Origin: Marsupella aquatica
Taxonomy: Eukaryota; Plantae; Marchantiophyta
Direction of reading: 5' to 3'
NCBI GenBank assembly: GCA_973895155.1
Contig: OZ316892.1
Span: forward strand, 11,112,420 to 11,176,419
Length of the DNA: 64,000 bases
Below, in pieces: positions 3,001 through 48,361 of this stretch; the stretch's first letter is position 1; each line of letters begins with the position of its first letter. The notes beneath the pieces are model-generated. The model saw only the letters and a list, made by a program, of their open reading frames with translations. It did not search any database and was not told the origin of the DNA. Position numbers and translations under genes: made by a program.

Positions 3001-3787
3001 TTTACAGTCAGAGGACTATGAGCCTCCACTAGGTGCCATCTGGGGTTAGTTTGGTTTGGTTTAGCCAACCCACATACAAACTAGCCAACCCATATACAAT
3101 CTTGGGGGCAACCTAACAATGAAATTAATTTTAGGGGACATGAAAATTAATTATTTTGCGTGTCTACTCAAGCAAAGGGAACCCCTTACCTGTAGGTTAG
3201 TACCAAATCCATCAAGGGCCTCACTGAAGTTTTCCTTTTTGCAGATGGGGTCCCAGTATAAGAAAGCCATATTTGATGAGCCTGTAAAAAATGCTATCCA
3301 TGGCTGGCATTCAAAGGCCAAACAGAGCAGCAAGATGCGCCAAAAGAAAAAATACAAGGAACTGATGGATAACAGCATCACAAGTTTACAGCCTAGAGAA
3401 TCCAACTTTGAGCTGGCAAATTTATTTGAGACTGAAAGCTCAGTGCAATCATCAAATGCGGAGGCAGAGGCCCCAACACCTGGTAATGACAATTGTGATC
3501 TTGAGGCTGGACAGGCTTCAAGAAAAACAAGTGTTTCATTAGGCCCACTGGAGATCGGAGAACATAAAAATTTCCCAGCTTTTGGCCTCAAAACAAACAC
3601 TGATGTTGGTACAGTATCATTTTCAGAAGAATCCACAAGAGGCAAGATGAAATTTCATGTCCTTGATCGATCAAGATCAAATGTGGAATTTTTTACACCA
3701 TTTCAATCGAATGTCTGGTATGATAATCTAATAGCCACTTTCAAGATCAAGAAACATCTCTCCTCTTCTGCCCAAGATAGGGAATAA
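47..3787 (+). CDS. MLO: MLO-family seven-transmembrane protein, 3' part (5' exons lie outside the window)
   Basis: GT-AG exons 47-122, 341-415, 648-733, 1035-1084, 1276-1316, 1466-1633, 1937-1972, 2130-2197, 2635-2695 and 3245-3787 join in frame. They give MLO motifs: FFRQF..VTKSDYLSLRMGFI, KFNFHVYMMRTLEDDFKQIVGIS, GTKLQHIITHLA, PRDELFWFNKP, FQNAFEL, LCSYSTLPLYALVTQMGSQYKKAIF, then the calmodulin-binding segment ending GWHSKAK. Confidence 0.96.
2758..3139. mobile_element. MITE/foldback element in the last MLO intron
   Basis: Imperfect terminal inverted repeats of about 50-85 bp: left CCCCCGAAATTAATTTAATTATCAGGTTGCCCCCA versus right reverse complement CCCCTAAAATTAATTTCATTGTTAGGTTGCCCCCA. No coding capacity; no clear TSD. 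Confidence 0.7.
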
Positions 3788-5270: not shown

Positions 5271-6931
5271 GGCCTGGACCCAGCAACGACCAACGATAGC
5301 AGCAACTCAAGCATCCCAAACCCAGCTCGCAATACAGCATCAACGATACAGCAGAGACGGCAGCTCAATCCCAAGCCCAACTCACGATACAGCAACCACG
5401 ATACAGCAGCGACGGCAGCAGCAATCGAGAGCATTGAGAGGCAGCAGTGACATCGAAAGCAAGCTAGCCTGAGGCCGAAAGAGAGTAGAGGAGCAGCACC
5501 CCAAGCACAAGCAGAGAGCCACGAGGAGACCACACAAAACACAGATGCGCCACGAGAGAGAGCTCCGACAAAAGGAGAGTATGAGCCTGAGATTAGCACT
5601 TCGGCCAGGAACGAGCCTGATCAGCATTTTGGCCAAGACTCTTTAGCCCTAAACTCCACACCCGACTCCACAGCCTGATTAGTCGTCGTCGTTTCAGCAC
5701 TTGCCGCCCTAAACTCTCTGCATTCATCTCACAGCCCTAATCTTTTATATTTCCTTTAAACTCGTATACGCCCTAAACGTGTACACTCGTATACAATGTT
5801 TCCGCTACAAGACAAAACACAAACGAGTTCCAGGATGAGCCCGCTATATAGGATGGCATGGATTCAAAGTGGAAAAACTTAGTTGTTCATATAGAGAGCA
5901 TTTTGATAGACGGTACCGTATTGGGTACCGCATCTCAGTGCAAAGGTTTGAATGAAATCCAATCTGAGATTATGGCATGATTGAATAAAATTAGTTCAAT
6001 GGGACCCGAAGTCTCTTCATTCAATTCCATCCATCTGCAGTTATTTACGCACTGTATCTTCTAAATCAGCCAGTATGGCAAATTTTATGTCAAGGAGGAG
6101 ATGCTGAGTATATTCCTTACAGGCTAGAGATGTACTAGATTTATTTATTTTTACTCCCGTTTATACTAGATAATCTTAAGGAGATGTTTCAGATTGTCGA
6201 CCATGGACCCGATGGCATGATGGGAAATTGTCTACCAAATGAGGCCAAGCATATGTGGTGAAAGATTACTGAATTTGGTTAATGTTTGCCACTAAAAAAT
6301 ACTGGCTAAGACTCCTTTCCCAGCATAGGGAAAAAAGGGTTGAGTTGGATCCAAAGTCTAGTTATTCTATTCCAATCATCCAATTTAAGTATGAATCATT
6401 ATATATGGCAAATTCTAAGCATATTCTTTTCACAATTCCTTAAATAAATTTGTTTGAACTATTTTTGACACTAAGATCTCGCTAGATTTTAAGGAGAGCC
6501 ATCAGATTGTGGACCATGGACCCTATGGCAAGGTGGCAACCTAACTATCAGGGATTTATTAGACTGCCACTCCTTTTTGGCATAAATAATATATATGGAC
6601 CTTGCCGCTAATGGGGCCACAATTTATTGTTTCTATTTATCATAATGTCATTGTCTTCATGGGTTAGGGGTCCTCACTTCTTTTGTTTTTACTGATCACT
6701 CGCAAATAAGTATGTGGTTTTTTATTGGGTTTAGTAAAATTCTTTTAAATTTTTGTGAAAGAACATTAGGGGCATTTTAATCAAATTTTTAGAATTCTAA
6801 TAATCATAGGGTCATTTAAATCAAATATGAATATATTCCAAGAATATTCTAAAAAGTTAGGGGTAAAAAAACCTTTGCAAAAATTATTTTTAGAGCAACC
6901 CCTAAGGTTGCCCGAATCTATTCCGCGTATT

Positions 6932-7140
6932 TATTCCTCCAAAAACTTTGTGTGTGATATAGGATCCCCCATAGAGTGAGGCCCTCGAGTAGCTCCCTCA
7001 CATCCACATTTGGCACTCCTTCACGTCCATGGCTCTATTCCTCCAAAAACTTTGTGTGTGATATAGGATCCCCCATAGAGTGAGGCCCTCGAGTAGCTCC
7101 CTCACATCCACATTTGGCACTCCTTCACGTCCATGGCTCT
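6932..7140. repeat. Perfect 104-bp tandem duplication
   Basis: TATTCCTCCAAAAACTTTG...CACGTCCATGGCTC starts at 6932 and again at 7036. Confidence 0.95.
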
Positions 7141-7918
7141 CATTGCACCCACTTTTCCACAATTCGATGGCTCTGGTACATCTCCCTCAAGGTGACTTTG
7201 ACAACCCTGAGCAGGACAGATACAAAGGCTGTGCGGAAGGAAGGTTGGCCTTGGACAAAGGCTGGGCGCAGGATGGGAGGATGGGACCACCCCACCCACC
7301 CCTTGGTCAACTGATCTAAGGGTGGTCAAAGTCATCTTGAGGTAGACCTGGGTAGTCTGATAAAGAATCTAGGTAAGAGATAGCCATTGGATGTGAAAGA
7401 GCTAACCTTGAGTTAATCATCTTAACACATAAATAGAAAAAAATCACTGGCAATGTATATATTGTCAAGAAAGAGGACAATCCAGCGAAAGCCAAATTCA
7501 CAATTGAGACCCAAGATGCGATGAATTTTAGCCAAGAATGACGAAAGATTACGGAGATTTGCTAATTTTAGCCACTTAAAAAAATTCCCCTTTCCCAATA
7601 TGAGGGGAAAATGGTCGAGTGGGGCCCAAAGTATCGCGAGTCAATTCCATCCATCTAATTTACGCAACGCTGTATCGTTCTATCCATCCATCTAATCTAC
7701 AGTCCCCTCTCGTCACTCGACTACCACTGCCCGCTCGCCATTAATCCGTGCTCCAGGAATCGCAGCATCAGCACAGAAAATAGAGCAGGGCTGAACAAAG
7801 AGAAGCAGCAGAGAAAATAGAGCAGAGCTGAGAAAACAGAGCACAGCAAAGCAAAGCAAAGCAAAGCAGGAGTTGCGAATCTGTTCTCATTTCGTTGAAG
7901 CTGTTCCTGTTGTTGGCG

Positions 7919-10819
7919 ATGGCCGCGGTTTCAGCTACAATCGTCGGTGCTACTCTCGGATCCGTTGCTACGCGGCGCACGGCTGCAACCCAGTTGTGGA
8001 TCTCGATCGGAGGCCATAGCCAGTGCCCTTTGACAGATTCGAGGACTGTCCGGTGCCGTTCCACCATTTTTGCCAGTTCAGGTGGACTTCCGGTGTTTGT
8101 ATGTAGTGTAGTGGAAATGGGCATTCAAGACAAGAAAAGCTTTTCTGTGGTCTGCATGACAGTAATGCTTGCTATAGAATGTGTGGCGTTGTCATCTGTT
8201 TGGAGTCTTGGGTTTTTTCCAACGTAAATGATATCTTTCTCGCTGCCTGCAATCTGTATCATACAAATTGGATTTCCTAGTAATTTTTGTAAGCCTGGGA
8301 ACACTGTCCTCGATTTAGAAACACTGACACGCCTTGGCAGCTTCGGAGGAAGAACTCGGGTCCTGTGTGTTTCTTTCGAAATTATGGTGGAGGTGTCCAC
8401 GTAGGATCAGGACTGCTTCACTTGAGCGTTGAGAATCTAAAAGCCAATTAGTACCTAGAATACTAGCTTCTTCCCATGGTTTCCGTCCCAAGAAGTGAGT
8501 GCAACTTATCTGGTGTGGGTTGCTTTAGACATAGTATGGCGTGTGGGTCGCTAGAATTCCTGTTGGTCGGAGTTCATGGGCTCTACTTCTGGAGTATGTC
8601 ATAGCAAATATGTAGGAGCCGAGGGGTCCTTTTACTTTCCATTGTCGTTTAATTCGTCAGCATTGATTGACTGTCTGAGAAGTTGCATACTTTGCTTTCT
8701 TTGGTTGTACAATTTATCACATGTGTTATGTAGACCTAAGCTTGTAACCCCTTTTGGGCCTCACATCGATACATTATGCCTTATCACATATGCTATATCA
8801 GTCCCCGGCACAATAAGCATGGCGCCCTCTGTTTCCCTGGGTCACGCGGTATTTGTCCTTGTGGACAGACAGACGGAAGGAAGGAAGGATTTATTGTTCC
8901 TCTAGAGCCCTCACAAGCTCGGCAATTAATGTCATCGAAAGCACTGCGGACGCCAAGGTAACTATGGCCACATTTAAAACGTGTGTGTTGTGAAAATGAT
9001 TGTGAAGATGGTTGACAAGATTTCGGGCAAGATTTGCACTTAAATTTTTAAGAATTTGGACCTCTTTATATTGCCCCGCAACACGATGCTGCCCAGACAT
9101 TCGACTCTTGGTCAATTGCCAATTTGTAGATGATTGTGATGTTGCTGGGGACAGTGTTGGTACAGGAAGTAGAGTTTACTTGGAAGGGACAAGGTTCGGA
9201 GGTCCTGATCACAGGGGACTTTCTAAATTGGGAGACAAAGCTTCCTTTGGAAAAGAGAAGTACCGGTGATTTCTCCCTCAAGCAGGTCAGCTCTCGATAC
9301 TTCGCTGTCTTGTGTCCAACATTATCAGATTTGTGATGGATCTGAACTTGATTGCGTGCAGCTTATTCTCAGTAAAGAGCCTTCACATTGACTGATTTTA
9401 TCATTGTCTTCATTGTTGTTTTACGGTTGTGATTATTCACAGTTTCTGGTTTTTTTCCTCACCAACAGCGACCCGCTTCTCTTCTTTGCAGTGAACGATT
9501 ATTACAACAACTGATAAGCCACTGTGATAGGTGATTTTGCATAGTTATGTCACCTTGACCGAGTTTTAGAATGTTGGACAGAAATACTTTCGTTCTTCAG
9601 GCAGTAAATTGATATGAATTCCCAATGTTTGCAGAAGCTTGCATTAGGAAGATATTCGTACAAGTTTGTCGTGGATGGTGAATGGAAGCATTCTCCAGAC
9701 TGCCCGACGGTGCCAGATGGAACTGGAGGCTTCAACAATGAAGTCATTGTAGCAGGTCATGGTCGTAGCTCCTTAATGTTTTATCCTTGTCCGGCACATC
9801 ATAAAGAAAGAAGGAAATGGGTGATTTATTTGGGATGACGCAGTAAACTTCAACTGCAGGAAAAGCTAGCTTATTGACCAGGTTGTATCATCTGTACCAG
9901 CAGACCCAACTACAATGAACGGTGTGACGGACTTCGAAAACGCAACCAAGGCTCAGGTTCCACCGCCTACCAACAGCGTGAAGGACTTAGAAAACGCAAC
10001 CAAGGCTCAAGTTCCTCAGCCTACCAACAGCGTGAAGGACTTCGAAAATGCAACCAAGTCTCAGGAGATTCCTCAGCCTACCAACAGCGTTAAGGCAGTA
10101 GCTACGGCAAAGCCCGCCAAGGAAAGTAAAAGTGATGTGGCAGTAGGGAATCCGAAGGCATCTACCGAGCCACGCCCCAAAGCTGCTCCAAAGAAGGTGG
10201 TGCCGCAGTCTCTGAAAGAAATTATGTCAGATAACGTTATCCCTCTGTTAAGGAGTGCCTTGTCGAAAGAAGCGGGCATATCAGATCTTGATGTCACTTT
10301 CGAAGATAATCAGGTGTGGCAATGGTTTCGTCTGTTCTCATGTAAATAGCGTACTGTTTCTGAAGTTAGATTCAAAAGTACCACTTGAATTTCGTGTCAA
10401 ATAGTTGACCCAGAATGGGCTTAGGATTTTCTTTTTTGTTTACCATGCTTTTCCCAGATTTTAATTCTAACAGTCCTTGTTTACAGTTAAAGACTAGTTT
10501 TACGAAAGGAGATATTCCTTACTGCCATTGGGTCTTCTTCCCAGATGGCATCCTTGAAGGTGTGTTCCGGCGGGGTCTATTTTTATTCGTTTCCATGAGA
10601 CCTGATGCTTTTTGGCGTACTGAATTGCGATCTGGTATAGTGTTTTAATTCCACACTCCCTGTTTCGCAGGCTCTCGGGGATCCTCTATTACATCTCATG
10701 GGGCGCCTCCCAGCACAATCGAACCATTCCTTGTTGATGAGAAGAAGATAAGTCCAGAATTACTTGTGTTCTGGATAAAGAAGAGACTGTTTGCACAAAA
10801 GATACTGTCCATGAATTGA
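7919..10819 (+). CDS. NdhV: Plastid-targeted CBM48 (AMPK-beta-type glucan-binding)-NdhV/DUF2996 fusion protein, about 349 aa
   Basis: Exons 7919-8081, 9155-9285, 9635-9755, 9901-10313, 10487-10559 and 10671-10819 total 1050 nt, all GT-AG and phase-consistent. N-terminal S/T/A/R-rich transit peptide (MAAVSATIVG...VRCRS). CBM48: EVEFTWKGQGSEVLITGDFLNW...GRYSYKFVVDGEWKH...GGFNNEVIV. NdhV-like C-terminus: LKEIMSDNVIPLLRSAL...DLDVTFEDNQL...PYCHWVFFPDG...STIEPFLVDEKKI..ELLVFWIKKRL. The exon 1-2 junction is inferred from phase only. Confidence 0.88.
9924..10091 (+). repeat. Coding tandem repeat, 3 x 54-57 bp (18-19 aa)
   Basis: VTDFENATKAQVPPPTNS / VKDLENATKAQVPQPTNS / VKDFENATKSQEIPQPTNS in exon 4 of the CBM48-NdhV gene. 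Confidence 0.95.
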
Positions 10820-13202: not shown

Positions 13203-16200
13203 TTACAACATTGGAACAGATCGCCGCCGTAACCTTGGACCATTATTCAATCCCGCTCGCAAGGTTCTGTCCTCTCCTTCCTGATCTGTTGTAGGCGTTG
13301 GAGCCAATTGTTGATGCACGTCCCGAAAGTCACGAAATATAGGAAGGAAAGAAACGAGTGTTGCAGGGCCACTTCCTAATATCCATGGCAACACTGAACC
13401 CAGTGACGTGAAGGGTCCTGAGTGGGTGGGCTCAACGACAGGCACCTGCGAGTCTGCTCCAGATTCTCTAAAACTCCTCCCTACAGAACTCCTCAGCCCA
13501 TTTTGCCCACTAACACCCTCGCCACCGTGTATTCCTACAGTCCTACTGCGATCTTCCGACTCACCAGAAAAAACATCTGAATGGTTTGGAATAAGACTAC
13601 TCAGACCACTACCTTGGTTTCTGCTGCTGTCAAACATTCGAGTACCAGAGTCCGCAGAAAAAGAACCTAAATTTCTGATGGATAAAGGATAAATTGTAGT
13701 TGGTTGAGAACCTCTACTATTCCTGTCACCATTTCTCTCCACCGCAATATTTGTCTGAGAGCGATCAACCTGCTGACTATCATTTCCGTTCCTGGATGCG
13801 TTGAGGGGAATTCCAGCTCTTTGACCAGTAGTATCTACTGAACTGGTGCGAGTATCTCCAAGAATTGAGCTGTTCGTCAGTCGGGCAACTTGAAGAATGG
13901 CTGAGGAGATGTGAAGACCCTGCTGTTGAAAGAGAGCCCTCCGCCGCAGGAAACTTTGAAGTGCAGGCACCTGTCAGAAATATTGACACTGAATGTCATC
14001 CACGACGCTTAGCACAAGAAATTTGTAAGAAGAAGAGTCACCAGGACCAAGAAATAGTACCTCAAATTGATTCCAAAAGTAAAGAACCAGGTGCTGCATG
14101 AAAGCGCCAGTAGCGGAAAATGCCAGGTATGAAAATCCTGCGACAACATAAACAATAGGACACAGGCAAGTAGAAAGATTGAAATTTGTAAGAGCCGCGC
14201 AAATGGAAGTAAAAAAAACATGTAGCGAGGTTCCACATTTGCTTAGACAAGATTATAAATTCAACTACGACACTACCCTGTTTTCTATATGAAATATGCC
14301 TTCCTGTCCAAAAACATTCTAACCTTCAGAGATTGAACAGAATCCTCACCGTATGTGTACGAAAAGAAATAGATATGAAACACCATAAAATACAAGAAGA
14401 AGAAGCGTGGGAAATACTGCATCGATAAAGGAGTCCTCACACTGCAACCCAAACAATGGCATCGTTAGCTTAACAATGAAAGGTGAAGCTCTCTAGTTCG
14501 TTCATCTAATAGGCTTCATCTCGTGAATGTTATAAATCCTTTGAATGAATCTAATAGCATCATAAAACCAATGCAGCAATGCTCAAAGATTCCATCCGAA
14601 GCCAAGTGGCAAGTACCTTATCATTGTATAAAGCTCACACAGCCAGACAAGTGTGAGAACCATAAAGGCTAGAAGCTGGTCGTCAAAGAACTCAAACAAG
14701 AAGAAGAGAATCCCGATCATTATCTGCACCCATGTAAAAGTCTGAATACGAGCTCTTGCACCTAACGGGTGCCTAGCAGGAAGGTTACTTGATTCTAAGT
14801 ACAAAGATTACTAAACGTGCTTATCGGGAATTTTACTGCCGATGCCAGGAATTGAATAATTTGAGGGATCCGAAAGCAAAAACTCCAATTTGTTATGAAG
14901 ATTGCATAAAAATTCGTTTCAATTCTATATAAATAGGAAGCTATGTCAGTTTTAGTAAACATGAATTTATCAAGAAAATAAGCATATGGATAGTGTTGAT
15001 TTCAGTGCAGTAGTTCACATTGATCATTTAGCCTCACAGAAAACATTTAACAATGACAAAACAACAACACAACCACATTCAATCCGGATATACAGACAAT
15101 ATTGACCAGCCAGGAAAAACACATGGGAGGTGGATTCATCCTTACAGGTACAAATACAAGGGACTCGATCACATGCACAAATATGAGACGGTATGTTGGA
15201 AGTCGATGGCGAGCATGATGTTGCAGTTGCACTGTAAGAGCAAGTAACCTTAGAGCTTGTTTTGACATGAATAGGATTTTGTGGTAAACTTGTGTCAATA
15301 GAAGGATATTCAAGCCAGTCAATTATATTCTCTGAAACACTATGCAAAATGCTGATGATCTCAGACTATCCAGACTCCAAGATGTGTTGGCAAACATTGA
15401 GCTACAGTAATAGCCCCCAATACCAAACCCAACGGTAAAATTTTCTTGTGGCACCTTACCTGTGAATTTGAGCATACGAGATTGTGTCTCTCGCAAGGTG
15501 AATGAGACAGACATTGTAGTAGTAAAGAAAACAAAAAGAGATGTGATGAGTACTCCACATTTGAACACGATATAACCTGCATGACCATTTTTACGCAGTT
15601 AATAACGAGAAACTGGGGACACTACGGAGGGAAGCGTCTTACACAGCAACATATCCCAATTTACAGAATTCACCCTTACATTGCTACTGCAATTCAAGAT
15701 AATGTCCAATATTTCTGAGAACAGAAAAACAATGAGAACAGGAGACGTGCCTTCAAATCCATGTGGAACGCCACTAAAATCTTGAAAGTAGTTCAAGTTA
15801 TAGAGTTCTTTCGTTTGAAAATTGTACAAATAACCTGCAGCATGCACCGATGGAGGCGTCGCCTATCAATCTCATCGATCGTTAACTCACCACAGTAATG
15901 GCGATTGTTAATCACTCTTGAGCTGACTTGACTGGGAGAGATTATTGAATGTATTCTCTTACCTTTTCCACGAGCGTGAAGTAAGCTGTTCATAAGAATA
16001 GTGTCATATCCTACAAAATTGTCGATTAAAAGTTGTTGCCATCTACAAGTCAAAGAACCACCGTACATCAGACTCTTTTCACTTCATATCCTCCAACAAT
16101 TTCGAATAATGGGTGAAAGGGTTCAAACTAATAAATGAATGGTTTCTACAAATCCAGAAGTACAAATTAGTGGATGGACAATATGATCGAACATGGAAGC

Positions 16201-25965: not shown

Positions 25966-26478
25966 AATGAAAAAGCTGTTGCATTACAGTAGAGGGAATT
26001 ACAGTAGAGGTCCAAATCTCGAAACATCCAGTTGTTGCATTCGCCATTAAAAAAACACAAAGCAATTATGAGAAATGGGTCTCAACCTACGGTAGGTCCT
26101 TCATTTCGAGCTCGTGGAGTGGACTCAGAGTAAAGTTGAACTTGCTGCGGTAAACTAGAATTGTTGGCCCGAGCTCCTTTCCATTTCAAGCGACAATCAA
26201 TGATCTACTGGGATTCTGAGCTCGGGTAGCGGATCGGGAGGATTAATTTTGATCACAGTGCCGCTCTCGATTATGTGCAGAACACCGTGGGGCCGAAGCC
26301 TTGATCGACGCTCATGATGAGTAGCAGAAAGCAAGTGCCAGCGGACACAGAATGAATGGGACTTAGCCAGATCACGAGAGTGCTGGATCCCCGCATCGTA
26401 GTAGTAAGTAGCGCCTCCACAACTTCAAGCGTTTTCCGATCCCGTTGAATATTTTGTGTGGAGTGTGGGCAGCACAGA

Positions 26479-29400
26479 ATGGAGCCGGACGTGAGTATCG
26501 ATGGAGCGAAGATGATCAGAGTGGCTGTTGTGGCGGTAGGCAACATCCCGACTGCACAATTGCGGGATTATGTGTCTTTGGTGGTGCGTCACAAGCGAGT
26601 GGAGCTCAGGACTGTGAGCTCTTTCTACAAAGAGCACCAGAAGAGTCCGTTCATGCGGGAGCCTTGGGACAGTGGTAGCCTGTGGTTTAAATTCTTGGTT
26701 GGAGGGGCGCCTAAGAGTCCGTGGGAGGATTTTCAAGCGAATCGGAAGTGCTTGGGTGTGATCGGACTCTTACATTGTCCCTCATCGGCAGATCTCGGGG
26801 CAGCGTATGATCACTTTATGGCTATCTGTAGAGCTTATCCTTCGGCTCAAGAGAAACGATGTTTCGCCTTTTATCCCCGAGACGATCAGGTACTTGGTCA
26901 TTCCAGTGAACTTAGTTCTGACGTCTTGCGAGCTTTCATTTTCGCCTGGGGTGTTTTGTCTATCAATGGTCCCTGCGATCGGACTCCTGCATTGCCTCTC
27001 ATCGTCAGATCTTGGGGCCACGCATGAGCGCTCTGGTACAACTTGTAGAGCACGTCCTTTTCCCACTAGAGAAGTGCTGCCCAGCTTTCAGCTGAGGTGT
27101 AGTTTTCCTGCTCGTGGTCAGGACTTGGCTTTTTTCTCCCACACTTCTGAGCTTCTTAGATGTCGCGCAAGCGTCTTTCTCACTGCTTAACATATACCTC
27201 TTATTTTATTCCACAATGTTATGGAAATGCTCTACCCTGAAGTTATTTGGGGATTGACTAACGACTTTCTTCTTTGGCCTCTGCACTATTGCAGAAATTC
27301 TGATAGTATCAATGTTGATGAATGACAGGTGGAGTTTGATGAGAAGAAGAGACAGCATTTAGTACTGTTCCCACCGAATCGACAGATGTTGGAATATCAC
27401 ATGCAAACACTGATGCAAGACTTTGGCGCATCTTTGCTCATGGCTTTTGAGTCTTGGGTCCTTCATGCCGAACCCGTGGGAGCCATTTTGCGAACCCCTT
27501 TGGATTCTCAGGCTTCGCTCAATTCTGAAGAGGTTGTTCAAAGCTTTCCACTCCTTTTTCCTTGCACTTGGATTCAATAATCGTCCTGTTGGATTGAATG
27601 AATTGCTCTCCCATAAATGAATTGAGAAATTTGTGCAGGTTAGCAAAGCGAAGAAGAGAAGGTTGGGGCGAATCCAGAAGACCATCGGAGACTACTGCCT
27701 TCTGGCAGGGTCGCCTGCTGATGCCGCCGATCATTATACTACTGCTGTTGACCTTGCAAGGCTCACCGGAGATGTTTTCTGGCACGCTGGAGCTATCGAA
27801 GGCATTGTCTGTGCGCTCCTGGTATGTTTCTATTACCTAATCTTGAATATGTGGGTGTCGTAGCTCCGCGGAGCTCACAGCTGTTACGCCATGTCCGTAA
27901 TCTCAGTATATAATTTGAAGCTATTGGTATTGATTTTTCTGTGAGCTGTGTTCAGGTGGATCGTGCTGGGCAGAAAGATCAGCAGCTGGAGGATGACGTG
28001 AAGTATCGTTACTACGAGGTCATCCAACTCTATCATCGGTGTGCACTCTACTCGAATGAACTTCTGGAATGGCTGAGGTTTCCCTGGAGTTGCAATTAGC
28101 CACCCCTTTCGTAGTATAAGAAAACAGTAAGGGAAGGGCAGTCTAAGTGGCGAGAAATGTGGCAGTGCATATTGTCAACTTGTCCTAATCACGTGTCAAA
28201 CCATCCCTTTTCATGTAAACATTTAGCACTTTGTACCAGGGGAATTGATTTCCTGTTACATTAGACAATTATGATGGCTTATTGCCTTAAACGCACAGTG
28301 AGGCCACTCACCCCCTTAGCTAGGTGCACTTCTTCTGGCTCATAGTACTTATTGGATTTGGAGGAGAGTCACATACGGCTATGAAGGCTTTAAGCATTAG
28401 CCATTATCCAACAAGGAAGATTGTTCCATTTTAATTGTGTGCAGGGAAAGAGCTCTGTCATTTGAGTTGGAGGCAACCTTGAAGCTGGCTCGCTTCCTCT
28501 GCAGGTGTGCATTCAGCCTTGCAAGATTGAGATCATTATCTAGTCCATGAAAGAGTATGAGGCTTGGAGACTTTTGGTACCTTTGGTCCATTCCAGGTTA
28601 AGGATTGCACAGGTAGGGCTTACTGCACTTTCTGAGACAATTGCTTGGTTGAAGCTGAGAGTAAAAGATGTGGAAGCATTCATTCCTTAAACGAACCCGG
28701 CTAGAACCACGGAAGTCTACCTTGGCTGTTTCTAGTCAGAAGCATGTTGAGCTCAATTTGCAAATGGCTCTTATTCCATCCAAGTCACTGGTCTGGTCTG
28801 ACTGTCGTTCACATCTTTGACAACATCGTCTGGATCGGCTTTCTTAAAGAGCTAGTACAGGCATTGTGTCCATCTGTTGTATTGAATGGTCACAACTGTA
28901 TTTGTTTGCCCAGAATGATGAATAGTCCTACAAGTCTCTTTCAATGGATAACTCTGGGGGCCAAATAATATCCTGTACAAATATTGTCAGTTTCGTAATT
29001 CTCTTTTTCTTGATTCCTGTGTCAGGAAAGAGCTTTCAAGGGAGGTTGTCGATCTGTTAATGGGAGCTATAGACGGTTCTCGGGGCTTGATGGATGCAAG
29101 TGACCGTCTTGTACTGAATGTTGAAGTGGCTCGCATATTTGGGGTTCTTGGATATGAAAGAAAAGCTGCTTTCTACCTACGGCAAGTGGCACAACTCTAT
29201 CAGCACCAAGATAGCTGTTGGGCTGCGACGAGTGCTCTTCAAGTTCTTACACTAACTGCAAGGACTTACCGAATTCAAAGCAAGGCAGTCAATAGTGCAA
29301 AAGGGAACACTTTGCTGGATGTAAGTACACAAGAGAGAGACGGTAGGTAGTTGTTTGGTAATACTGGAGTGTTGGTGTTCATTGTCAGCTTATGGGACAA

Positions 29401-32400
29401 ACTGCCCTCTTCACTGCTGTTAGCGTTGCCAAGTAACGAAGCAACGGAAAGGGCAGAATTTTTTTCTGAAGCAGTCAAACCTGCCTACCTACCCTGACAA
29501 GATTTCTAACTAGCAGTCAACTTTAGATCAGCGATTATCTTTAATTTTGTTCCACATAGGGGTCTCAAGTGCTATAACAGGAAGATCATCTTCATGACAT
29601 GGATTGTCCCTTGTTTATCCCTATTCCCTGGAGCAACTTTCTGTATGTTCTCCATGATCATCACTGCATCTGCTTAGGAATATCTTCTCAAATTTTGCGA
29701 TTTAGCCCTTGGTCAATATACTTTAGTCAATCTTGCGATCTATGCCGTCGTGTAAGGCACTTTAGTTTGGTTTGGTTCACGGATATTACAATTGTGTTCT
29801 TCTTCTTAGTTAGTATAATTCATATAGCATACAGATTACTTGAGAGGACTGCTGATATTATTGAACAATGTTGTGCAGCTTTTTCGAGAGTCCGGTGCAC
29901 AGCCAGTGATCAAAGAAAACAAGACGCTCCCTAGACCTTTGGCAGTTGCAGATGGACAATGGAGCACTTTGCAAATGGACATCCTTAGTGACATGCTGGC
30001 TGCTGCAGTGCGAGCTGGAGATCCATTATCTGCCTGGAGTGCAGCTGCACGTTTGGTACGGAGTCACTATCCCCTGATCACGCCTCATGGTCAAGTTGGC
30101 CTGGCAATGGCCCTAACAACTGCTGCAGAGTGTCTTCCTCCGGGTACTCGCTGCTCCGATCCTGCTCTTCCTTTTGTAAGGTTTGTTTCTGCACACACTG
30201 TTTCTTTCCCTTGAGTCAACTACTTGTTAACCTAGTCTTAGTGACGGTGGAGAGCGATTTGTTGGCACGGAGGAGTTCTTTCCTTCTCTTCCAATTGCGG
30301 GCTCTTAATCTGAGTGTCTGTACATATTCTATATGGGCCATTTCAGGTGACAGATTTTAAGGGTTGTTGCTTTCGCTATGGAAATTAGAGGGTTCTCTGC
30401 TTCAGTAAATGATGTCTCTGCAAAGTTTAGAGGCAGTGAGGGTACTAAGACGTAGTCGGGCTTCCAGGGTTCCTTCCTCCAGGATATCCTCAGCCGCTCT
30501 CAGTTTGTTGGTAATTGGAAATTTGGTTGCCAGGAGCTCAATCTTTCTACTTGGGCTTTCTTACTGGTACTTTTAGCAATGATGGGTGCTATTGGGTAAT
30601 TCGCACAAAGATTGCTCTGCCCTTCAGTGCTACTGTGAATTCAGCGTTGATCTTGCTGATAGTAATAGTTGAGGGAACTTCTTGATCTGTTGTCTTGCAG
30701 ACTACATTCGTTCACATGTCTTCCCCGTGAGATGGAAATAGTGAAGAGAGTATCAGAAAAGAAGGACTGGTGGATTGAAGTTTCCTCATCTGGGCCATTT
30801 ATATACACACCGTTTTCATCCAAAGCGATAGCTGCAGACCTTGAATCTGAAGTCATGTGGGTAGTTGGTCAGCCTGTCCAGGTTTTAGTGGCCTTATCCA
30901 ACCCATCTACTTTTGATGTGATTGTGGAGAGCATATGCCTCTCCATAGATTCTGGACATTTTGAGAGTTATCCTGTGACGGTGGTTTTACCTCCAAACTC
31001 ATCACAGGTGCTCACATTATCGGGTATTCCATTATCAGTTGGCCGGTTAGTTGTTCGTGGATGTCTTGTGCAGTGTTTTGGGGTGGTGACGGAGCATTTA
31101 TTCCAAGATGCCGAAGACCTCGTGTCCGCTGTGGTATTAGCCGATCCTTTTAGGAGTGTGGGTGGACATAAAGCTAGCCAGGCTCGACTTGTAGATATTG
31201 TTGTAATTTCTCCATTGCCATTATTAGTAGCTCAGGTTGTTGGGGGAGAGGGTGCAGTTGTCCTTTACGAGGGAGAGGTTCGAGAGATGCAAATAAAGCT
31301 TGCCAATGCTGGAGTCGTTCCCATGGTAGAAGCTACGATAACCTTGGCCGGCAAACAGAAAGAGCATATCTTGTCGTTAGGGCATGAAGTTTTAACGGCG
31401 GCGTTGCCCCTCCTTCCCGGGGCCTCAGTTGTAATTCCTGTGAGATTAAAAGCAGGCCAACCTACCACGGAAGTTAAGACTCTGGGTGCAAAGGGTGATG
31501 GAGCAGTCATTCCCAACAAGGACCCTGCTTCTCCAATGCTGGTCATTTATTATGCAGGTATCACGATATGTCCTGTGCTTTTTATGTTGAAACTGCACGT
31601 TGCAGTTAATTTCCTGAGTTTCAACCATAACACTTGTACCATGGCAGCTGGATTTTGCGATCCATTGCTGAGTTTTATGGAAGCTTCTTTTCTTTCGTTC
31701 TAGGTTTCTTTCTCTGCTTTGAATCCTTTGCGTGAGTAAGATCTGGCTATCTGGGTTTTGTCACAGGCAATATTTAATGATGAGAACTCAAATTGCTGAT
31801 GCTACCGGTATGAATTGCAGGACCGTCCTTGCAAACCAGGGATTACCAGGATCACAACGTCATCTCTACAGAATTGCCTCATGGACGACGACTAACACTT
31901 CCTTTGAAGCTCCATGTGCTACGTGGGTTAAATCTGGTACAAGCACGCTTGCTGTCCATGGAAGTGCCTGCACATATTAGTAGGTCTCTCCCAGATCCAA
32001 TCATCTGTGACCGTTCAGCAAATGATTCATCAAGTAAGCTAGTTAAAATTGATCCCTACAGAGGAAGCTGGGGATTACTACTCCTCGAGCTGGAACTATG
32101 GAATGCTACAGACGTCCTCTTTGAGGTTACTGTGAATGTGAAGAAAGAAGAATTTACAGAGACCACTGAGGCTGCTGATGATTTGCTGGTGAATGATTCT
32201 TTGCTACCAAGTACCAGAATTGATCAGGACCACTCAGCGCGCATTCTTGTGCCTTTAGAAAGGTTCAAGCTTCCAGGCATTGACAAAGCTTTCTTGGCTA
32301 GATCGCTAGCAAGAAATGGTGGGCTGTCGAGACAAGATTCAGATCCTAATGAAAGTTCTGACAGGCGAGCAAAGGCAGAATTGACGGCCACCATTGAAGA

Positions 32401-33326
32401 GTTAAGTTCAAGAATTAGTGTTAAGTGGCACTCAGGTCGAAACAGTGCTGGAGAGCTTCCAATGAAGGAGGCAATTAGAGAAGCATTGCAAGAGTCAGCC
32501 ATTGAAATTCTTCTCCCCGATCCTTTGACTTTTTGGTTCAGATTGGCACGAGATAGCCAACTCTCTTCTGGCAACAGCTCAAAGGTATCAAGAAATGCGG
32601 AAGCAAACCTCGAGAAACAGGATGGAAATGCGGACTGTATTGTAGCTCATGACTTAACTGCAATGGAAATTTTGATACGAAATAACACTAGGGATTCGGT
32701 ATCTATGTCTTTAAGTGTCACTTGTCGAGATGTAACCGGTGCGAGCTGCCTCGGGTCGAGTGGAACTAAGGCAACCGTTCTTTGGGCTGGTATGATCTAA
32801 TTCCCCTTGCTTCTCTGCGTTTCACTTGTAGTGCAGTTGGTGTTTGGGTGTTGTTAAAAACCTGGTGCAAATTGAAGGTTTAAAAAAGGGAAAACTCGCT
32901 TTCCTCTACACTAGCATATCGTTGATAAAGATATTGCAGCCATTGGATATGAGCAATGAGTATGGTTTGCAGTTGTTTTGCTGAAGGTAGCTCGGTGCGG
33001 AGCTGTGTAGAGTTAGTCATATAGAGGTTTGAGTTGTTCAATGAATGCATCTCGTTCTGCCATGTGACTTTTTTGTTTTTTGCGTTATTCTTTCAGGGGC
33101 TTTGAATGGAGTGGATGTGGAGGTCCCAGCTCTGGGTGAAGTAGTTCATGCGTTTGCACTATGCTTCATGGTGCCAGGACAATACACATTATTGGGGGCT
33201 GCCATGATCAATAACCCCAATAGAAGTGTTGCTGCTGAATCGAAGTTACTACTCGTGGAGTCTGGACAAGAGCCACTGTGTTACAGTGGCCCACCCTTCA
33301 CTGTTGATGTTATTGGGACCAGTTGA
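26479..33326 (+). CDS. TRS120: TRAPPII-specific subunit TRS120 / TRAPPC9
   Basis: 10 exons: 26479-26889, 27329-27532, 27639-27821, 27956-28038, 28445-28504, 29026-29320, 29879-30180, 30701-31557, 31821-32789, 33097-33326. Motifs: MEPDVSI..MIRVAV, SSFYKEHQKSPF..PWDSGSL, SPWEDFQANRK, KAKKRRLGRIQKTIGDYCLLAGSPADA, FELEATLKLARFLC, GPFIYTPFS, LVKIDPYRGSWGL..LELELWN, WHSGRNSAGEL. Confidence 0.97.
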
Positions 33327-36012: not shown

Positions 36013-36882
36013 CGCAATCAATAATTACCATCATCATCATCAGCGTTCTGTCGCAAGATCTGTCGCGAAAAATCGAAAGATTCGTCGCCAAAAGTCGGAA
36101 AAAAGTTCAGATCATCGCGCTCTCATGAAGCCCGGCCCCAAACGCTCGTGAATCTTCTGCAAGATCTGTCGCTCAGAATAGGAGAAGAGCTCGGATCCTC
36201 GCTTCCGTCGAGCTACCTACCAGGAGCACTGGACGTCGGCGTGGTGGCGGAAGGGAAGGGAAGGGAAGGGGGAAGGGAAGGGAAGGGAACGAAGGATGGG
36301 CTGCCACCACCGAACTGCTTCCCTTGTCTTGTGAGACGGACATTCTTCTTCTGTTTAGGAAGCAGAGCAGAGCAGAGCAGAGCAGCGTAGAGCAGAGGAG
36401 AGGAGAGGAGATTATGAGTACTGCGGCGTTGTTGACAGGTTTGACAATGAAGGTATTGATTGTGATGTGAAAGGGGTCGGCAGCAGCTTACAAGGGCAGA
36501 GGAGAGCAGGAGCAGGAGTGGCACATGGAGAGAGGCGAGAAATTGTCGGCAGCCTGGGAAGCAATTGGTCAATTGATCGCGGAGATCCGGCCTGATATTG
36601 GTGAGAGAATATCCATGATCCAGTGCTCTGCCCCAAGGAGGGTGCGTGGGATGCAAGAAGAATCCAAAGCTGTCGTGTAGAGCCGGAGGAGAGTGCTCTT
36701 TGCAAGGCAGGGCTGGCTGGTGGTCTGGTGTTCAATAAAGTAAAGCAGAGTAGGAACGATATTGTTTTGCATGCGGAAGAGTGCGCAGTGGAGGGGAGGG
36801 GAGTGGTGGTACTATCTGGTGAGTGGTATCTGTGAATGTGGCCTAGCAGCGGAGGGCACAGCGAGGGCGAGAATGTGAGAGA

Positions 36883-39800
36883 ATGAGCGGTAATGGATTG
36901 GGTGTAGGAGGTTCCATGCGCCGTTCAAGTTTACAGTCTCAGAAAATGGAAATGCCCAAGCTGCAAGCGCGCATGAGCTCTCCATTCCCGCCTCCTCATA
37001 AAACACAGCTTCCCCCTCGCTATCAGGTGAACCCTGGTAACCCCTGGCGTTCCTCCTGCCGAAGGAATGTGTGGATAGTCTTGGGCATTCTCCTGCTTCT
37101 GACCTTTTGCTTATACCTCGTTTCAATCGTCACCAAGGGCATGCTGATGTCATCTAGCCATATGCGGACGGGCAGTCATAAAGGGTATGTTGTAATCATA
37201 GATGCGGGGAGCACAGGATCTCGTCTCCATGTTTTTCAGTACATCCCAGTGCAAGGTCAGGATCACCACGTCTCCTTGCCTCTGATCAACACTAAGGAGT
37301 CTCCCTCTCTCAAGGTTCGCCCTGGGCTCTCGTCCTTCGCTTCCGACCCAGCGAAAGCAGGCACATCTTTGAAACCGCTTCTGGAGTTTGCTCGAGAACG
37401 TGTACCGGAAAGTGACAGAGATGTCACTCGACTTTACTTAATGGCAACTGCTGGCTTGCGCCTGCTAACGATAGATTCTCAAGAGGGCATCCTGGACTCC
37501 TGCAGAACGCTACTTCGAAGCTCAGGTTTCTCTTTCAGAGACGACTGGGCCTCTGTCATCACAGGTGAGTAGAGCTTAGCTGTTTACAAGCTTTAGTTTG
37601 ATCTTCTCTTAACGATGTTATTACTTGGATTGTTGCCGATACTTCTCGAGATTGATATGATGCATTTTGGGAGATTTTTTGTCTCTAGATCTGTCTGACC
37701 AAAGTCCTTATAATATGGCACATTGTTATAGCATCCCCTTCCGTGACCCAGCGCTGATCAGCACAGGGTATCAAATTGGGCACTAGTTTGCGCAAAGCTC
37801 TTCAGACAGCACGGCTTGGCTTCACAAGATTTCGGAACAGGCACCGAAAATTCAAAACAATCTCGAGCATTTAGAGTAAGAGAGAGAAATAGGAGTTTTC
37901 TGTAAGGAAGCCAAAACTAAGTAGCTCGTAATTGACAAAGACGTATAAATGAAATTCGATTTTGCCACTCTACTAGGCGGTAGGTCTGATCTCAAAGAAC
38001 AAACTTAGCATTTCCCTTCTTACATTGTGATTTTAGAATGTCAACGGAGACGATAAGCTGAAGCCAGTCAAGGCAGGTGATGGCGCGAAATTCGGTGAAT
38101 CTAAATTTTCAAGACCAAATCCAGCAATTCCATAAGAGGGGGCCTTACTCGCTGTGTACTCAAAAGAGATGGGCGAGTTAGCATGAGCTAATTTCCCAGT
38201 AACACTCTTCTGTTAGGGATACATACCTTCCAGTCGAAATTTACAAGCTTCCTTACCGAATTTTTAATCTCTGAGCCGGTGAAAACTTGAGTTCGAGACG
38301 AGTACTGATATAAGACAAGTCAGGCAACCAGGAGTAATTCTTCGTCAAGATCGTGTTGCCAGAATGAGCGGAAAGCCCTACATTCAGTCCCCTTTCAAAC
38401 ATATTACCAGTCCAGTTAGCGAAGACAGAAAAATATATGATGCAGTTTTTTTGACAGGGATGCTCACAGCACAACCTCTTCTGGTTTGCGATGGCAGGCA
38501 CAGAGGAAGGTATCTACGCCTGGATTGCTGCGAACTATGCACTAGGAACTCTCGGAAGGAACCCTCATGAAACCACTGGAATTGTAGAACTTGGTGGAGC
38601 TTCTGCTCAGGCATGCAGTCTCATATCACATCTTGATGTCTATTGTTTGTTGTGTGAGTCGATTTGTGTGGGGCGCACTTGTCCACCTGAATGCAGCTTC
38701 AGTTAGCTTGATTAAAGAAGCCCAGAAATTGTGGCGACTAATGGCTATTAGGCAGGCGATAAATATAGGCAATTGATTGTTCGAAGCATCAAATGACATT
38801 GTGACTCTTTTGTATTTCATGGTCGTTAGCAGCTGGCTTTCCGGGTTGTATTTAGCTGCATCAAGTTGAAATGTAAGCACATAGACCAAAGGAAGAGATC
38901 TGTGAAAGCAGGTGCAGCTTTAAAGTCAGGCGCCTAACTCTGATGGACAAATGGTCAGCGTGCATTGTAAGTTTTCGAGGGATATGTTTTTATAGTACAT
39001 AGCCATGACATGCACTTCATTGGATCAATTCAGGTTACTTTTGTTCCGAAGGATGTCCCACCACCTGCCTTCAGACATGATCTGTCACTTCTGGGTGTCA
39101 CTTATTCATTGTATACATACAGCTTTCTGCAATTTGGTCAGGTAAGAATGGGTGATCTTAGTTGAGATTTATCAATTGGGTAATCAGCAATTGGGAACTT
39201 GTGGTCATCTTCGAATTGTAATAGCAGCTTCAAAATATTTGGGGTAGGTGCAATAGCACGTCTGCTTCCACTGCAGTACGGGGTATGCATGCTCAGTGGA
39301 CAAAAAGTGCTATCATTTTGGTTCTTATATTGTGTCTCAAGATATCCCGTCTTTTGTTCCTGGCAGGAGGCTGCCTGGGAAATTTTGCTAGAGTCAATTC
39401 TCAACGGAGAACTGGAACCTTGTAAGACCAATCATCATTCTGAACCTTTGGATTTCAGATTGTAGGGGTAATAGTTGTTACGAAGTTCCTGTCTTTCTCA
39501 GTTGCGATATTTCAGCTATTCTTTTGTCGGAATAAAGTGAATCTATCGCTAGTTCTGTTATAATTTCAGTCATCGACATCCGTTAAATTTTTGGAAATTG
39601 TATGCACAGTATTGCCTGCTCTGGAGAAAGGTGTGGTCTTGGATCCATGTACTCCTCGAGGCTATGTTCAGGAAAAAACCTTGCTACTTGCCGACGAAGA
39701 CAACAGTGGAATTGCCAGGGAGGCTATTGTATCAGTCCATGCTGCTGGCAACTTTACAGCATGTCGAATTGCTGCCCTTAGGCTTCTTCAGAAAGGCAGC

Positions 39801-41186
39801 GGTACGTGTCAGATGAATTTTCAATTGATTGGGTTTGATTAGTCAGATCGTCCAGGTACCTTTTCTCCGAAGACTCATGTACATCAGTGTGCGCCTGGCA
39901 CTACCGGTACTGCAATAATCCAGTTCTAGAAATATTTGTGCCTTGTCTTCTGAGCATGCTTCGTTGCCAGTCCAGCTGTCTTGGCTTGTCGGGTTAAGGT
40001 CTTTAAGGTTTCTGCTCTTACTAACATTCATCTTTGTTGGGTAATGGTTATATTCCTATAGAGAGCTGTTTGTACAAGAAGTGTGCTATTGGAAAAGCAT
40101 TCGTCCCTGAATTACGCGGAAGCTTTTTTGCAACCGAAAATTTCTTCTACACTTCTGAGGTTCGAACCCTGCATCTGTATCTGACAATGAAAGTTGAAGA
40201 TCTAGGTGAAACTAGAAAATAATCTTTCAGATAGTTTGGTTTGAGTTGTAGGCTAAATTGAAGTCTTAGGTTGAGCTAGTGAGCTCGTTGTTATAGTTTC
40301 AGCTGTAGTTCATCTGAAGAAGGTACAAATTAAAATTGTTTCTCCAGTTCTTTCTATGGTTGTGAACTGTTGAAAGATGTGACTGGAGAAAGTCGCGGGT
40401 ACCTTTCGCATTGTCCTTATTCTGCTTCGTATGCTTTGATTATCTTAAACTCTTGCCGGTGACTAATGAATGGCAAATGATGCAATGCTTTGGGTGACGT
40501 ACAGTTTTTTGGGTTGCCATCATCAACATCACTAGAAGCGGTGGAAGCTGCGGGGCGACATTATTGTGGTGAAGATTGGAAGGTGCTGCAGGAAAAACAC
40601 AAGGGAATGGAGTCAGATGACTTGCTTAAGTATTGCTTCTCAACTGCATATATTGTGGCCCTACTTCATGACACCCTCGGGGTCGATATGAATGATGACA
40701 GGTTCTCCATACTTACTATCAGTCTCTTGATCGTTGAAGTTTGCGAATGTTTCCCTGCTTTCAGTACTTCACAGGTTCGATTAAAAGTTTGCCCAAGTCC
40801 GTGTAGTCACCTTGACGGTGCCCTACTTTGGATGGACATCTGTCCTTGATACCTCCTGCGCAGCATATAATCTTGCTCTATGGCCCTATTCTCATCCTTG
40901 CCACCCGTCTTGCAGGATACGATTTACAAACCAAGTAGGAGACGTGCCTCTTGATTGGGCCTTAGGAGCCCTCATTTTTCACATGGAGAGAGAACATTTT
41001 GGCGAGGTGCCACCTGCATGGCCATTGGGAGACGAGGCATTCAGGATTTTTTCGATATTGGGGTGCATCATTTTAGTAGGTTTAGCAGTATGGTTAGTCA
41101 GAAGATATCGCAGGCCACACCTGAAAACTATATATGACCTAGAAAAAGGGCGTTATATCACCACGGCAGCTCGAAGTCATCGATAG
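36883..41186 (+). CDS. APY6: GDA1/CD39 nucleoside phosphatase (apyrase), APY6-like, with N- and C-terminal transmembrane segments
   Basis: Exons 36883-37564, 38498-38610, 39034-39141, 39367-39421, 39610-39801, 40062-40159, 40505-40701 and 40916-41186. Apyrase conserved regions: IIDAGSTGSRLHVF, LMATAGLRLL, ITGTEEGIYAWIAANY, VELGGASAQ, DWALGA. C-terminal KTIYDLEKGRYI is as in APY6. Confidence 0.95.
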
Positions 41187-47971: not shown

Positions 47972-48361
47972 GGACCGGAATTAAACAGCGATACATAGCT
48001 GCATTGAGGCGCAGACATAGACATTCTCCAGAAGGTGTTTCCGTTCGCGCTAACGAACCAAGGGTTTGACGATCTTCATAGCTCGCTTTGCATCTGCAGC
48101 AACCAAATTTCACCACAAGCACCGAAGATGGGCTCGAAAATTGCCTCGCTTCGGTCTCCTCCTCTCTCCCATAGTCACAGCCCATCCGCTCTGCACCCAG
48201 CCCAAGCAAACAATGTCGGCGAGCGCCATGAATCTCCTCTTTCCTCCATCAGGAGACGTGTCTTCGCGCACTGTGTTTGGGGCCCAAAGAAGGATCAGAA
48301 GATTTTCCATCGACTAAACAGTAGACCAAAAGCGTCCCCTATACAAAGAGACAAGAGGCCA

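What the first reader, a model, noticed from the sequence alone, without database searches (positions are those of the whole stretch)
7919..10819. Starch-binding CBM48 domain fused to an NdhV-like NDH-complex subunit
Seen: six phase-consistent exons encode transit peptide + CBM48 + repeat linker + DUF2996-type domain. The CBM48 keeps the glucan-contact residues of the AMPK-beta domain (W in GDFLNW, K in YKF, W in DGEW, N in FNN). Established: the C-terminal signature (IP.L...L....I.D....FEDN.L...PY..W.FFP.G...ST.EPFLVDEKK....VFW..KRL) is that of NdhV, a peripheral subunit of the cyanobacterial and chloroplast NDH complex in ferredoxin-dependent cyclic electron flow. The NdhV proteins I know carry no CBM. 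Plastid CBM48 proteins such as PTST, SEX4 and LSF1 use the domain to bind starch. Inference: this protein could tether NDH-bearing thylakoids to starch granules, or let starch status regulate cyclic electron flow by sequestering NdhV. If the host has a starch-associated pyrenoid (e.g. a hornwort), it is a candidate CCM-organising factor. I cannot confirm from here that the architecture is undescribed.
Basis: partly seen in the sequence, partly recalled or inferred. Interest (0 to 1): 0.9.

Follow-up and report, generated by a model that had tools for sequence, protein, structure and literature searches.

The report
Starch-binding module fused to NdhV
This liverwort-like gene joins a predicted starch-binding module to NdhV, a helper subunit of the chloroplast NDH complex; the same fusion occurs from early streptophyte algae to ferns but not in the seed-plant proteins found, and it likely links starch to cyclic electron flow, which is untested.

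Summary
Six GT-AG exons give a 349-aa frame with an AMPK-beta-type CBM48, a flexible linker and a DUF2996/NdhV domain. The fusion is not a gene-model artefact. 26 of 40 hits to the closest relative (Calypogeia) carry both domains. Intronless Sphagnum-like contigs encode both in one frame, with all five introns at the same places and phases as here. The fusion runs from Chlorokybus and Klebsormidium through Zygnematophyceae, liverworts, Sphagnum, lycophytes and ferns. Prasinophyte, Ginkgo and angiosperm NdhV lack the CBM. The CBM is a two-exon phase-1/1 cassette: one Diphasiastrum gene model skips it exactly, and an angiosperm-type gene keeps a phase-1 intron where it sat. The glucan-binding tryptophans and NdhV's basic pair are kept. 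The host groups with Calypogeia, so the hornwort-pyrenoid idea does not apply here. Most likely, glucan binding controls where and how much of this loosely bound NDH activator is available; that is untested. No paper describing the fusion turned up in my searches. This scan reported the same fusion before in a peat-moss genome (e1-7303933).

The parts
7919..8081 (+). Exon 1: ATG and predicted chloroplast transit peptide (aa 1-54); least certain exon
   Evidence: S/T/A make up 24 of 54 residues, with 5 R and 1 acidic. No tblastn match to the two relatives printed. No targeting predictor was available.
9155..9285 (+). Exon 2: first half of CBM48 (W80 = AMPK beta1 W100); phase-1 intron on its 5' side
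   Evidence: PF16561 E 4e-9; same 131-nt size as in L015; offset to 4zhx_B
9635..9755 (+). Exon 3: second half of CBM48 (K108, W115, N132); phase-1 intron on its 3' side. Exons 2+3 total 252 nt, a cassette that can be skipped in frame
   Evidence: PF16561 E 6e-12; offsets; skipping exons 2-3 keeps the frame open
9901..10313 (+). Exon 4: A/P/K/T-rich linker (about 100 aa) and the start of the NdhV domain
   Evidence: linker has low pLDDT in the orthologue model
9924..10095 (+). 54-nt (18-aa) tandem repeat, 3.1 copies, inside the linker; lineage-specific expansion
   Evidence: a single unit in Calypogeia P0001
10487..10559 (+). Exon 5: middle of the NdhV domain
   Evidence: Same 73-nt size and phases as in L015; NdhV profile hit
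10671..10819 (+). Exon 6: C-terminal part of NdhV with the basic pair K325/K326 (= T. elongatus R122/K123) and stop
   Evidence: PF11210 E 4e-10; 6khi_V E 3e-7; residue roles from PMC7021789

Best explanation
The gene encodes the seed-free streptophyte form of NdhV, carrying an N-terminal CBM48 on a long linker; it is predicted to be plastid-imported, and its CBM likely binds starch or maltooligosaccharides so that glucan would control where and how much of this loosely bound NDH activator reaches the complex. Shown here: one reading frame, both domains, conservation of both across the lineages sampled, and the key residues. From the literature on homologues: NdhV sits on NdhS/NdhI, is loosely bound, and raises ferredoxin-dependent plastoquinone reduction in a dose-dependent way; PTST's CBM48 binds starch weakly through the two tryptophans kept here. 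Inferred: import into the plastid, glucan binding, NDH binding, and the coupling. In the coupling step the CBM parks NdhV on the granule surface, where it activates NDH in thylakoids within reach of the linker and is withheld from NDH elsewhere. NDH activity would then follow starch position and amount. A CBM-less splice form, as annotated in Diphasiastrum, would be the uncoupled version.
For: Both domains are present with Pfam scores above cut-off. 26 of 40 homologues carry both domains; named carriers run from Chlorokybus to ferns. Intronless contigs L001 and L002 hold both domains in one frame, and all five junctions of genomic L015 occur in both with 0-1 mismatches in 20 nt. The CBM is about as conserved as the NdhV domain: 74/84 vs 97/109 to Calypogeia, 55/83 vs 64/109 to Sphagnum, 43/79 vs 55/103 to Klebsormidium; pN is 0.20 vs 0.21 at saturated pS. 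The W, K, W equivalents are invariant in 26 of 26 aligned proteins and the N150 equivalent is kept in 25 of 26. The orthologue model has two independent folded domains and a disordered linker, pTM 0.39. Its CBM matches 1z0m at rmsd 0.9 A over 81 residues, and its NdhV domain matches 6l7o_V at Z 13.0, rmsd 2.2 A, 103 residues. NdhV is transient and limiting in vitro (PMC7021789; PMC6992706). The two tryptophans are needed for starch binding in PTST (PMC4339375).
Against: There are no binding, localisation or mutant data for any fused NdhV. Seed-plant and prasinophyte NdhV work without a CBM, and one unnamed Closterium-like protein (P0054) also lacks it, so the module is dispensable. The AMPK beta1 hairpin residues L146 and T148 (roles recalled) are replaced by T128 and G130, so affinity or specificity may differ. 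The moss PSI-NDH proteome did not identify NdhV, for lack of a database record (PMC11629750), and its one readable supplement has no CBM or DUF2996 entry; association of a fused form with NDH is therefore not on record. No transcript evidence for this organism was seen. The direction of the effect (activation near starch or sequestration) cannot be told from sequence.
Confidence: 0.5

Rival explanations
1. The purpose runs the other way: NdhV is the thylakoid anchor and the CBM serves starch, catching glucan primers at the membrane to help position granule initiation or to hold thylakoids against granules or a pyrenoid starch sheath.
For: Two binding modules on a 31-161-aa flexible linker is the anatomy of a tether. 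PTST shows that a non-catalytic CBM48 protein can act in starch targeting. The fusion is present in streptophyte algae, which have starch-sheathed pyrenoids (recalled).
Against: NdhV is loosely bound and lost on purification, and PTST's CBM binding is weak or transient. The fusion is kept in liverworts, Sphagnum, lycophytes and ferns, which have no pyrenoid (recalled). The host groups with Calypogeia. No hornwort sequence was recovered to test the idea.
Confidence: 0.2
2. The CBM48 no longer serves glucan binding. It is a protein-interaction or stabilising module, for NDH subunits or for NdhV's own domain, and standard NdhV function is unaffected by starch.
For: L146 and T148 equivalents are not kept. 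AMPK beta CBMs also pack against the kinase (recalled). The domain is dispensable in seed plants.
Against: The surface aromatic and polar glucan-site residues are invariant or nearly so in 26 proteins, which a purely structural role would not need. LSF1's CBM has a similar hairpin without the leucine (alignment). The full-length model has low pTM, giving no sign of a fixed interdomain contact.
Confidence: 0.2
3. The CBM binds glucan but is a near-neutral passenger, or most transcripts skip exons 2-3 and the working protein is plain NdhV.
For: The cassette is symmetric (phase 1/1) and skips in frame. Diphasiastrum has CBM-less models under the same locus tags that lack exactly 84 aa. Seed plants lost it.
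Against: The CBM has been kept from Chlorokybus to ferns with the same constraint as the NdhV domain. Transcript-derived records carry it (L001, L002; Trinity-named proteins).
Confidence: 0.08
4. Two neighbouring genes were joined by the gene model.
For: No reads for this organism were seen. Exon 1 is not confirmed by homology.
Against: Only 145 nt separate the CBM and NdhV exons, with no AATAAA there and no room for a promoter and transit peptide. Intron positions are identical in a Sphagnum-like gene whose spliced form exists as intronless contigs. 26 fused homologues were found.
Confidence: 0.02

Closest known systems
NdhV (T. elongatus Tlr0472, PDB 6khi_V / 6l7o_V; Synechocystis Sll0272; angiosperm NdhV of Fan et al. 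2015)
   Same: DUF2996 domain, same fold (Z 13.0, rmsd 2.2 A), basic pair at R122/K123, and the last two introns plus a phase-1 intron after the leader shared with an angiosperm-type gene.
   Different: Carries an 84-aa CBM48 between the leader and the linker. The prasinophyte, Ginkgo and angiosperm proteins found here have none, and the 146-aa cyanobacterial chain matches only the C-terminal domain.
AMPK beta-subunit glycogen-binding domain (PF16561; PDB 1z0m, 4yef)
   Same: About 40% identity, rmsd 0.9 A over 81 residues; W100, K126, W133 and N150 positions kept.
   Different: No kinase-scaffold C-terminus; L146 and T148 positions are T and G; predicted plastid location.
PTST1 (At5g39790) and related non-catalytic plastid CBM48 proteins
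   Same: Non-catalytic, with a CBM48 bearing the two tryptophans that PTST needs for starch binding.
   Different: The CBM is N-terminal, the partner domain is an NDH subunit rather than coiled coils, and the modelled linker has no helix.
LSF1 and SEX4 CBM48 (PDB 8j5d, 3nme)
   Same: LSF1 is the best PDB sequence match for exon 3 (E 8e-7); SEX4 is at Z 14.2.
   Different: No phosphatase domain here. The donor of the CBM was not established.

Membership tests
NdhV | DUF2996 domain | tested here: met
   Exon 6: 40.7 bits against a cut-off of 27; orthologue P0001: 53.2 bits
NdhV | Fold of the solved NdhV subunit | tested here: met
   Model of the Calypogeia orthologue (89% identical in this domain): Z 13.0, rmsd 2.2 A, 103 of 103 residues to 6l7o_V
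NdhV | Basic pair R122/K123, assigned to the ferredoxin interface by Zhang et al. 2020 (Pan et al. 2020 see no direct NdhV-ferredoxin contact) | tested here: met
   K325/K326. First position basic in 22 of 26 aligned proteins, second in 25 of 26
NdhV | Orthology with seed-plant NdhV | tested here: met
   52/106 and 61/105 identities to the Bauhinia and Ginkgo domains; three shared intron positions and phases with L003/L075. The tree backbone is unresolved.
NdhV | Chloroplast transit peptide and stromal location | tested here: inconclusive
   Composition fits; no predictor available; exon 1 not confirmed by homology
NdhV | Binds NdhS/NdhI and stimulates ferredoxin-dependent plastoquinone reduction | not testable with these tools
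   Needs biochemistry
CBM48, AMPK-beta type | PF16561 match and beta-sandwich fold | tested here: met
CBM48, AMPK-beta type | Glucan-stacking W100 and W133 (PMC4339375), plus K126 and N150 (recalled) | tested here: met
   W80, W115, K108, N132; 26, 26, 26 and 25 of 26
CBM48, AMPK-beta type | Hairpin residues L146 and T148 (recalled) | tested here: not met
   T128 and G130; LSF1 also lacks the leucine in the alignment
CBM48, AMPK-beta type | Measured alpha-glucan binding | not testable with these tools
   Needs pull-down or calorimetry
PTST family | N-terminal coiled coils with a C-terminal CBM48 | tested here: not met
   CBM is N-terminal; no helix in the modelled linker
Pyrenoid / CCM organising factor | Host with a pyrenoid; Rubisco-binding motifs; pyrenoid location | tested here: inconclusive
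   Host groups with Calypogeia at 100/99 support; motifs and location were not tested; no hornwort homologue was recovered

The most novel reading that the evidence does not exclude
From the first streptophyte algae until the rise of seed plants, the chloroplast NDH complex has had a starch-sensing activator. NdhV's CBM48 lets the starch granule gate cyclic electron flow or night-time chlororespiration directly, alternative splicing of the two-exon cassette switches the coupling off, and seed plants fixed the uncoupled form.
Probability: 0.3. Interest if true: 0.85.

Novelty: new variant of a known kind. Interest (0 to 1): 0.62.

Why it matters
How the carbon store feeds back on photosynthetic electron flow is an open question, and I know of no thylakoid electron-transport subunit with a starch-binding domain (own knowledge). 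Here one is conserved across seed-free streptophytes and apparently overlooked. A moss NDH proteome listed NdhV as having no database record (PMC11629750), a fern survey with angiosperm-seeded queries did not detect it (PMC9328107), and UniRef labels three of the fused proteins after the AMPK domain. A two-tryptophan knock-in in Marchantia makes the starch-NDH link directly testable. The loss in seed plants adds a step to the evolution of chloroplast NDH.

Tried and rejected
No whole genome is held, so a second, CBM-less NdhV in this organism could not be sought; the 64-kb window has only this one NdhV and this one CBM match. No sequencing reads for this organism could be obtained. Alternative 5' models: acceptor 9167 is not preceded by AG in my test, the three models with an extra exon at 8906-8957 break the CBM frame, and donor 8098 with acceptor 9130 is open but does not match the homologous exon size. 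A scan for symmetric micro-exons in intron 1 gave no candidate like the relatives' motif. My first coordinates for exons 3, 5 and 6 and for the last exon of L015 were off by one or two bases and were corrected. The profile search with alignment A2 returned only 6 proteins and added no hornwort, Physcomitrium, Chara, Coleochaete or Mesostigma record; the searches are word-limited and show cluster representatives only, so this is no evidence of absence. The CBM tree (33 fused and the 40 best-scoring of 123 unfused CBMs, mostly unnamed) groups 32 of 33 fused CBMs at SH-aLRT 83; an AU test does not reject one origin (p 0.725) but does not show it, and no donor can be named. Complex prediction of the CBM against the NdhV domain was not available. 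The supplement of PMC9326235 could not be read. The pyrenoid reading was set aside for this host because of its lineage.

Full report
Observation. The region holds a six-exon gene on the + strand: 7919-8081, 9155-9285, 9635-9755, 9901-10313, 10487-10559, 10671-10819. All five introns are GT-AG, with phases 1,0,1,0,1, and the joined frame is 349 aa. Pfam finds AMPK1_CBM (PF16561) on exons 2 and 3 and DUF2996 (PF11210) on exon 6, all above cut-off. Exon 6 matches T. elongatus NdhV, chain 6khi_V, at E 3e-7. The linker holds a 54-nt repeat of 3.1 copies.

Host. The nearest protein is P0001 of Calypogeia fissa, 346 aa, with both Pfam domains. Identity is 74/84 in the CBM and 97/109 in the NdhV domain, and the two are sisters in an NdhV-domain tree at 100/99 support, inside a liverwort group. 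The host is therefore most likely a leafy liverwort. That liverworts lack pyrenoids is recalled. No whole genome is held.

One transcript. I saw no reads for this organism, so the test rests on homologues. A scan of metagenome contigs gave 180 confirmed relatives, of which the best 80 were kept. Two intronless contigs, L001 and L002 (about 90% identical to Sphagnum compactum P0014), encode CBM and NdhV in one frame. A matching genomic locus, L015, has six exons with the same phases and the same inner sizes as here (131, 121, 73, 149 nt). All five of its junctions occur in both contigs with 0 or 1 mismatch in 20 nt. Only 145 nt separate the CBM and NdhV exons in the window. Exon 1 is the weak point: it gave no tblastn match to the two queries printed, and the leader is shorter than Calypogeia's.

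Distribution. With P0001 as query, 26 of 40 hits carry both domains, 5 carry DUF2996 only and 9 carry CBM-type families only. A full HMMER search of 50%-identity representatives added more. Among the 185 proteins then held, 57 matched an NdhV profile: 33 with a CBM and 24 without (both profiles were built from 26 of the fused proteins). Named carriers are Chlorokybus atmophyticus, Klebsormidium subtile, Spirogloea muscicola (partial CBM), a Mesen1 record (Mesotaenium by recall; partial CBM), Netrium digitus, Closterium spp., Calypogeia, Riccia, Marchantia paleacea, Sphagnum compactum, Selaginella, Diphasiastrum, Psilotum, Pteridium, Adiantum and Ceratopteris. Named proteins without a CBM come from Pyramimonas, Nephroselmis, Ginkgo, Asparagus, Bauhinia, Rosa and Fragaria, plus partial Taxus, Ananas and Lolium records that cannot show absence. 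Two exceptions lie inside the fused range: the Diphasiastrum short models and the unnamed P0054, which groups with Closterium-like rows. The simplest history is a gain in the streptophyte ancestor and a loss in seed plants. That is inference: only one complete gymnosperm protein was seen, and no hornwort, Physcomitrium, Chara, Coleochaete or Mesostigma record was identified. In a CBM tree 32 of 33 fused CBMs group at SH-aLRT 83, and one origin is not rejected (p-AU 0.725), though not shown.

A removable cassette. Exons 2 and 3 total 252 nt between two phase-1 introns, and skipping them keeps the frame open. Diphasiastrum P0188 carries the same locus tags as the fused P0015 and lacks exactly 84 residues at those borders; these are database gene models, not reads. 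An angiosperm-type pair, intronless L003 and genomic L075, has a phase-1 intron right after the leader, where the cassette sits here, and shares the last two introns in place and phase. So the seed-plant gene looks like this gene minus two exons.

Are both modules intact? In the 26-protein alignment A1, the positions matching AMPK beta1 W100, K126 and W133 are invariant and N150 is kept in 25. In the window these are W80, K108, W115 and N132. PTST needs the two tryptophans for starch binding, and its binding is weak or transient (PMC4339375, passages). L146 and T148 (roles recalled) are replaced by T and G. The NdhV basic pair R122/K123 is K325/K326 here. Zhang et al. place that pair at the ferredoxin interface (PMC7021789, passages), while Pan et al. 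see NdhV bracing the NdhI hairpin without direct ferredoxin contact (PMC6992706, passages). An AlphaFold model of P0001 has two confident domains and a disordered linker, pTM 0.39. The CBM matches 1z0m at rmsd 0.9 A over 81 residues, and the NdhV domain matches 6l7o_V at Z 13.0. Against L015, the CBM exons and the NdhV exons show the same constraint, pN 0.20 and 0.21 with pS saturated. Linker length varies from 31 to 161 aa in 32 proteins, and Calypogeia has one repeat unit, so the repeat itself is not conserved.

Mechanism. In cyanobacteria NdhV is loosely bound and raises NDH activity in proportion to dose, and it is missing from the purified spinach supercomplex (PMC12170339, passages). A glucan-binding module on such a subunit most plausibly governs its availability. 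Bound to the granule surface, it would serve NDH in thylakoids within reach of the linker (up to roughly 35 nm for 100 residues, my estimate) and be withheld elsewhere. I put this at 0.5. The rivals are a starch-side tether (0.2), a non-glucan protein module (0.2), a passenger or mostly skipped cassette (0.08) and a model artefact (0.02). Import, glucan binding, NDH binding and the coupling are all inferred.

Literature. Full-text searches of the open library gave 0 papers for NdhV with CBM48, with AMPK and with starch-binding. NdhV with starch gave 8, NdhV with Marchantia 9, DUF2996 2 and NdhV since 2022 28. By listing, none concerns a fused form. Two broad searches (20 of 185 and 30 of 428 listed) showed no NDH or NdhV occurrence in the listed rows. 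A search for NdhV with carbohydrate-binding module timed out. I read passages of PMC11629750 (moss NdhV not identified, no database record; one supplement searched), PMC12038448 (no CBM or fusion), PMC9326235 (supplement unreadable), PMC8211685, PMC8102782 and PMC9328107 (ndhV not detected in Schizaeales transcriptomes or in Azolla and Salvinia with angiosperm-seeded queries and a 60% identity filter). Fan et al. 2015, Gao et al. 2016, Chen et al. 2016 and Ueda et al. 2012 were not seen and might mention the extension. The two-domain architecture is visible in automatic Pfam annotation.

Earlier findings. A sequence look-up in this scan's notes found nothing. A word look-up found e1-7303933, the same fusion in a peat-moss genome with the same range. 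I had the range, the junction test and the tree before reading it; it agrees and is not independent support.

Verdict. A real, ancient and apparently undescribed variant of NdhV, not a one-genome oddity and not a pyrenoid factor in this host. Interest 0.62; 0.85 if starch is shown to gate NDH.

Noticed in passing
window 3065-3787 (+): Frame matching the C-terminal part of the Mlo family (PF03094, E 4e-8).
   Followed up: partly
window 26449-32800 (+): Exons of a TRAPPC9/Trs120 gene (PF08626 on two frames).
   Followed up: partly
window 36847-41186 (+): GDA1/CD39 apyrase gene (PF01150, E 9e-34 on the first frame).
   Followed up: partly
window 54037-54981 (-): SNAPC1 match (PF09808, E 5e-36) within one 314-aa frame.
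   Followed up: partly
window 46724-47980 (-) and 13203-13973 (-): Long frames (418 and 256 aa) with no Pfam match at E 0.001. The first has a transit-peptide-like start and an acidic, tryptophan-rich end.
   Followed up: no
window about 6920-7140 and 7775-7868: A short direct duplication upstream of the gene (seen) and AG-rich short repeats in the presumed 5' UTR.
   Followed up: no
window 59907-60590: Low-complexity repeated frames on the - strand, probably a tandem DNA repeat.
   Followed up: no
P0054: Unnamed 203-aa NdhV with a full leader and no CBM that groups with Closterium-like rows: a possible independent loss or skipped form in Zygnematophyceae.
   Followed up: partly
P0043: A 670-aa Closterium model has a retrotransposon-like N-terminal half (by eye) in front of CBM48-NdhV; probably a gene-model artefact.
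   Followed up: no
PMC9328107 and PMC11629750: Published statements that ndhV was undetected in several ferns and had no moss database record contrast with the fused NdhV proteins found here in other ferns and in Sphagnum.
   Followed up: partly
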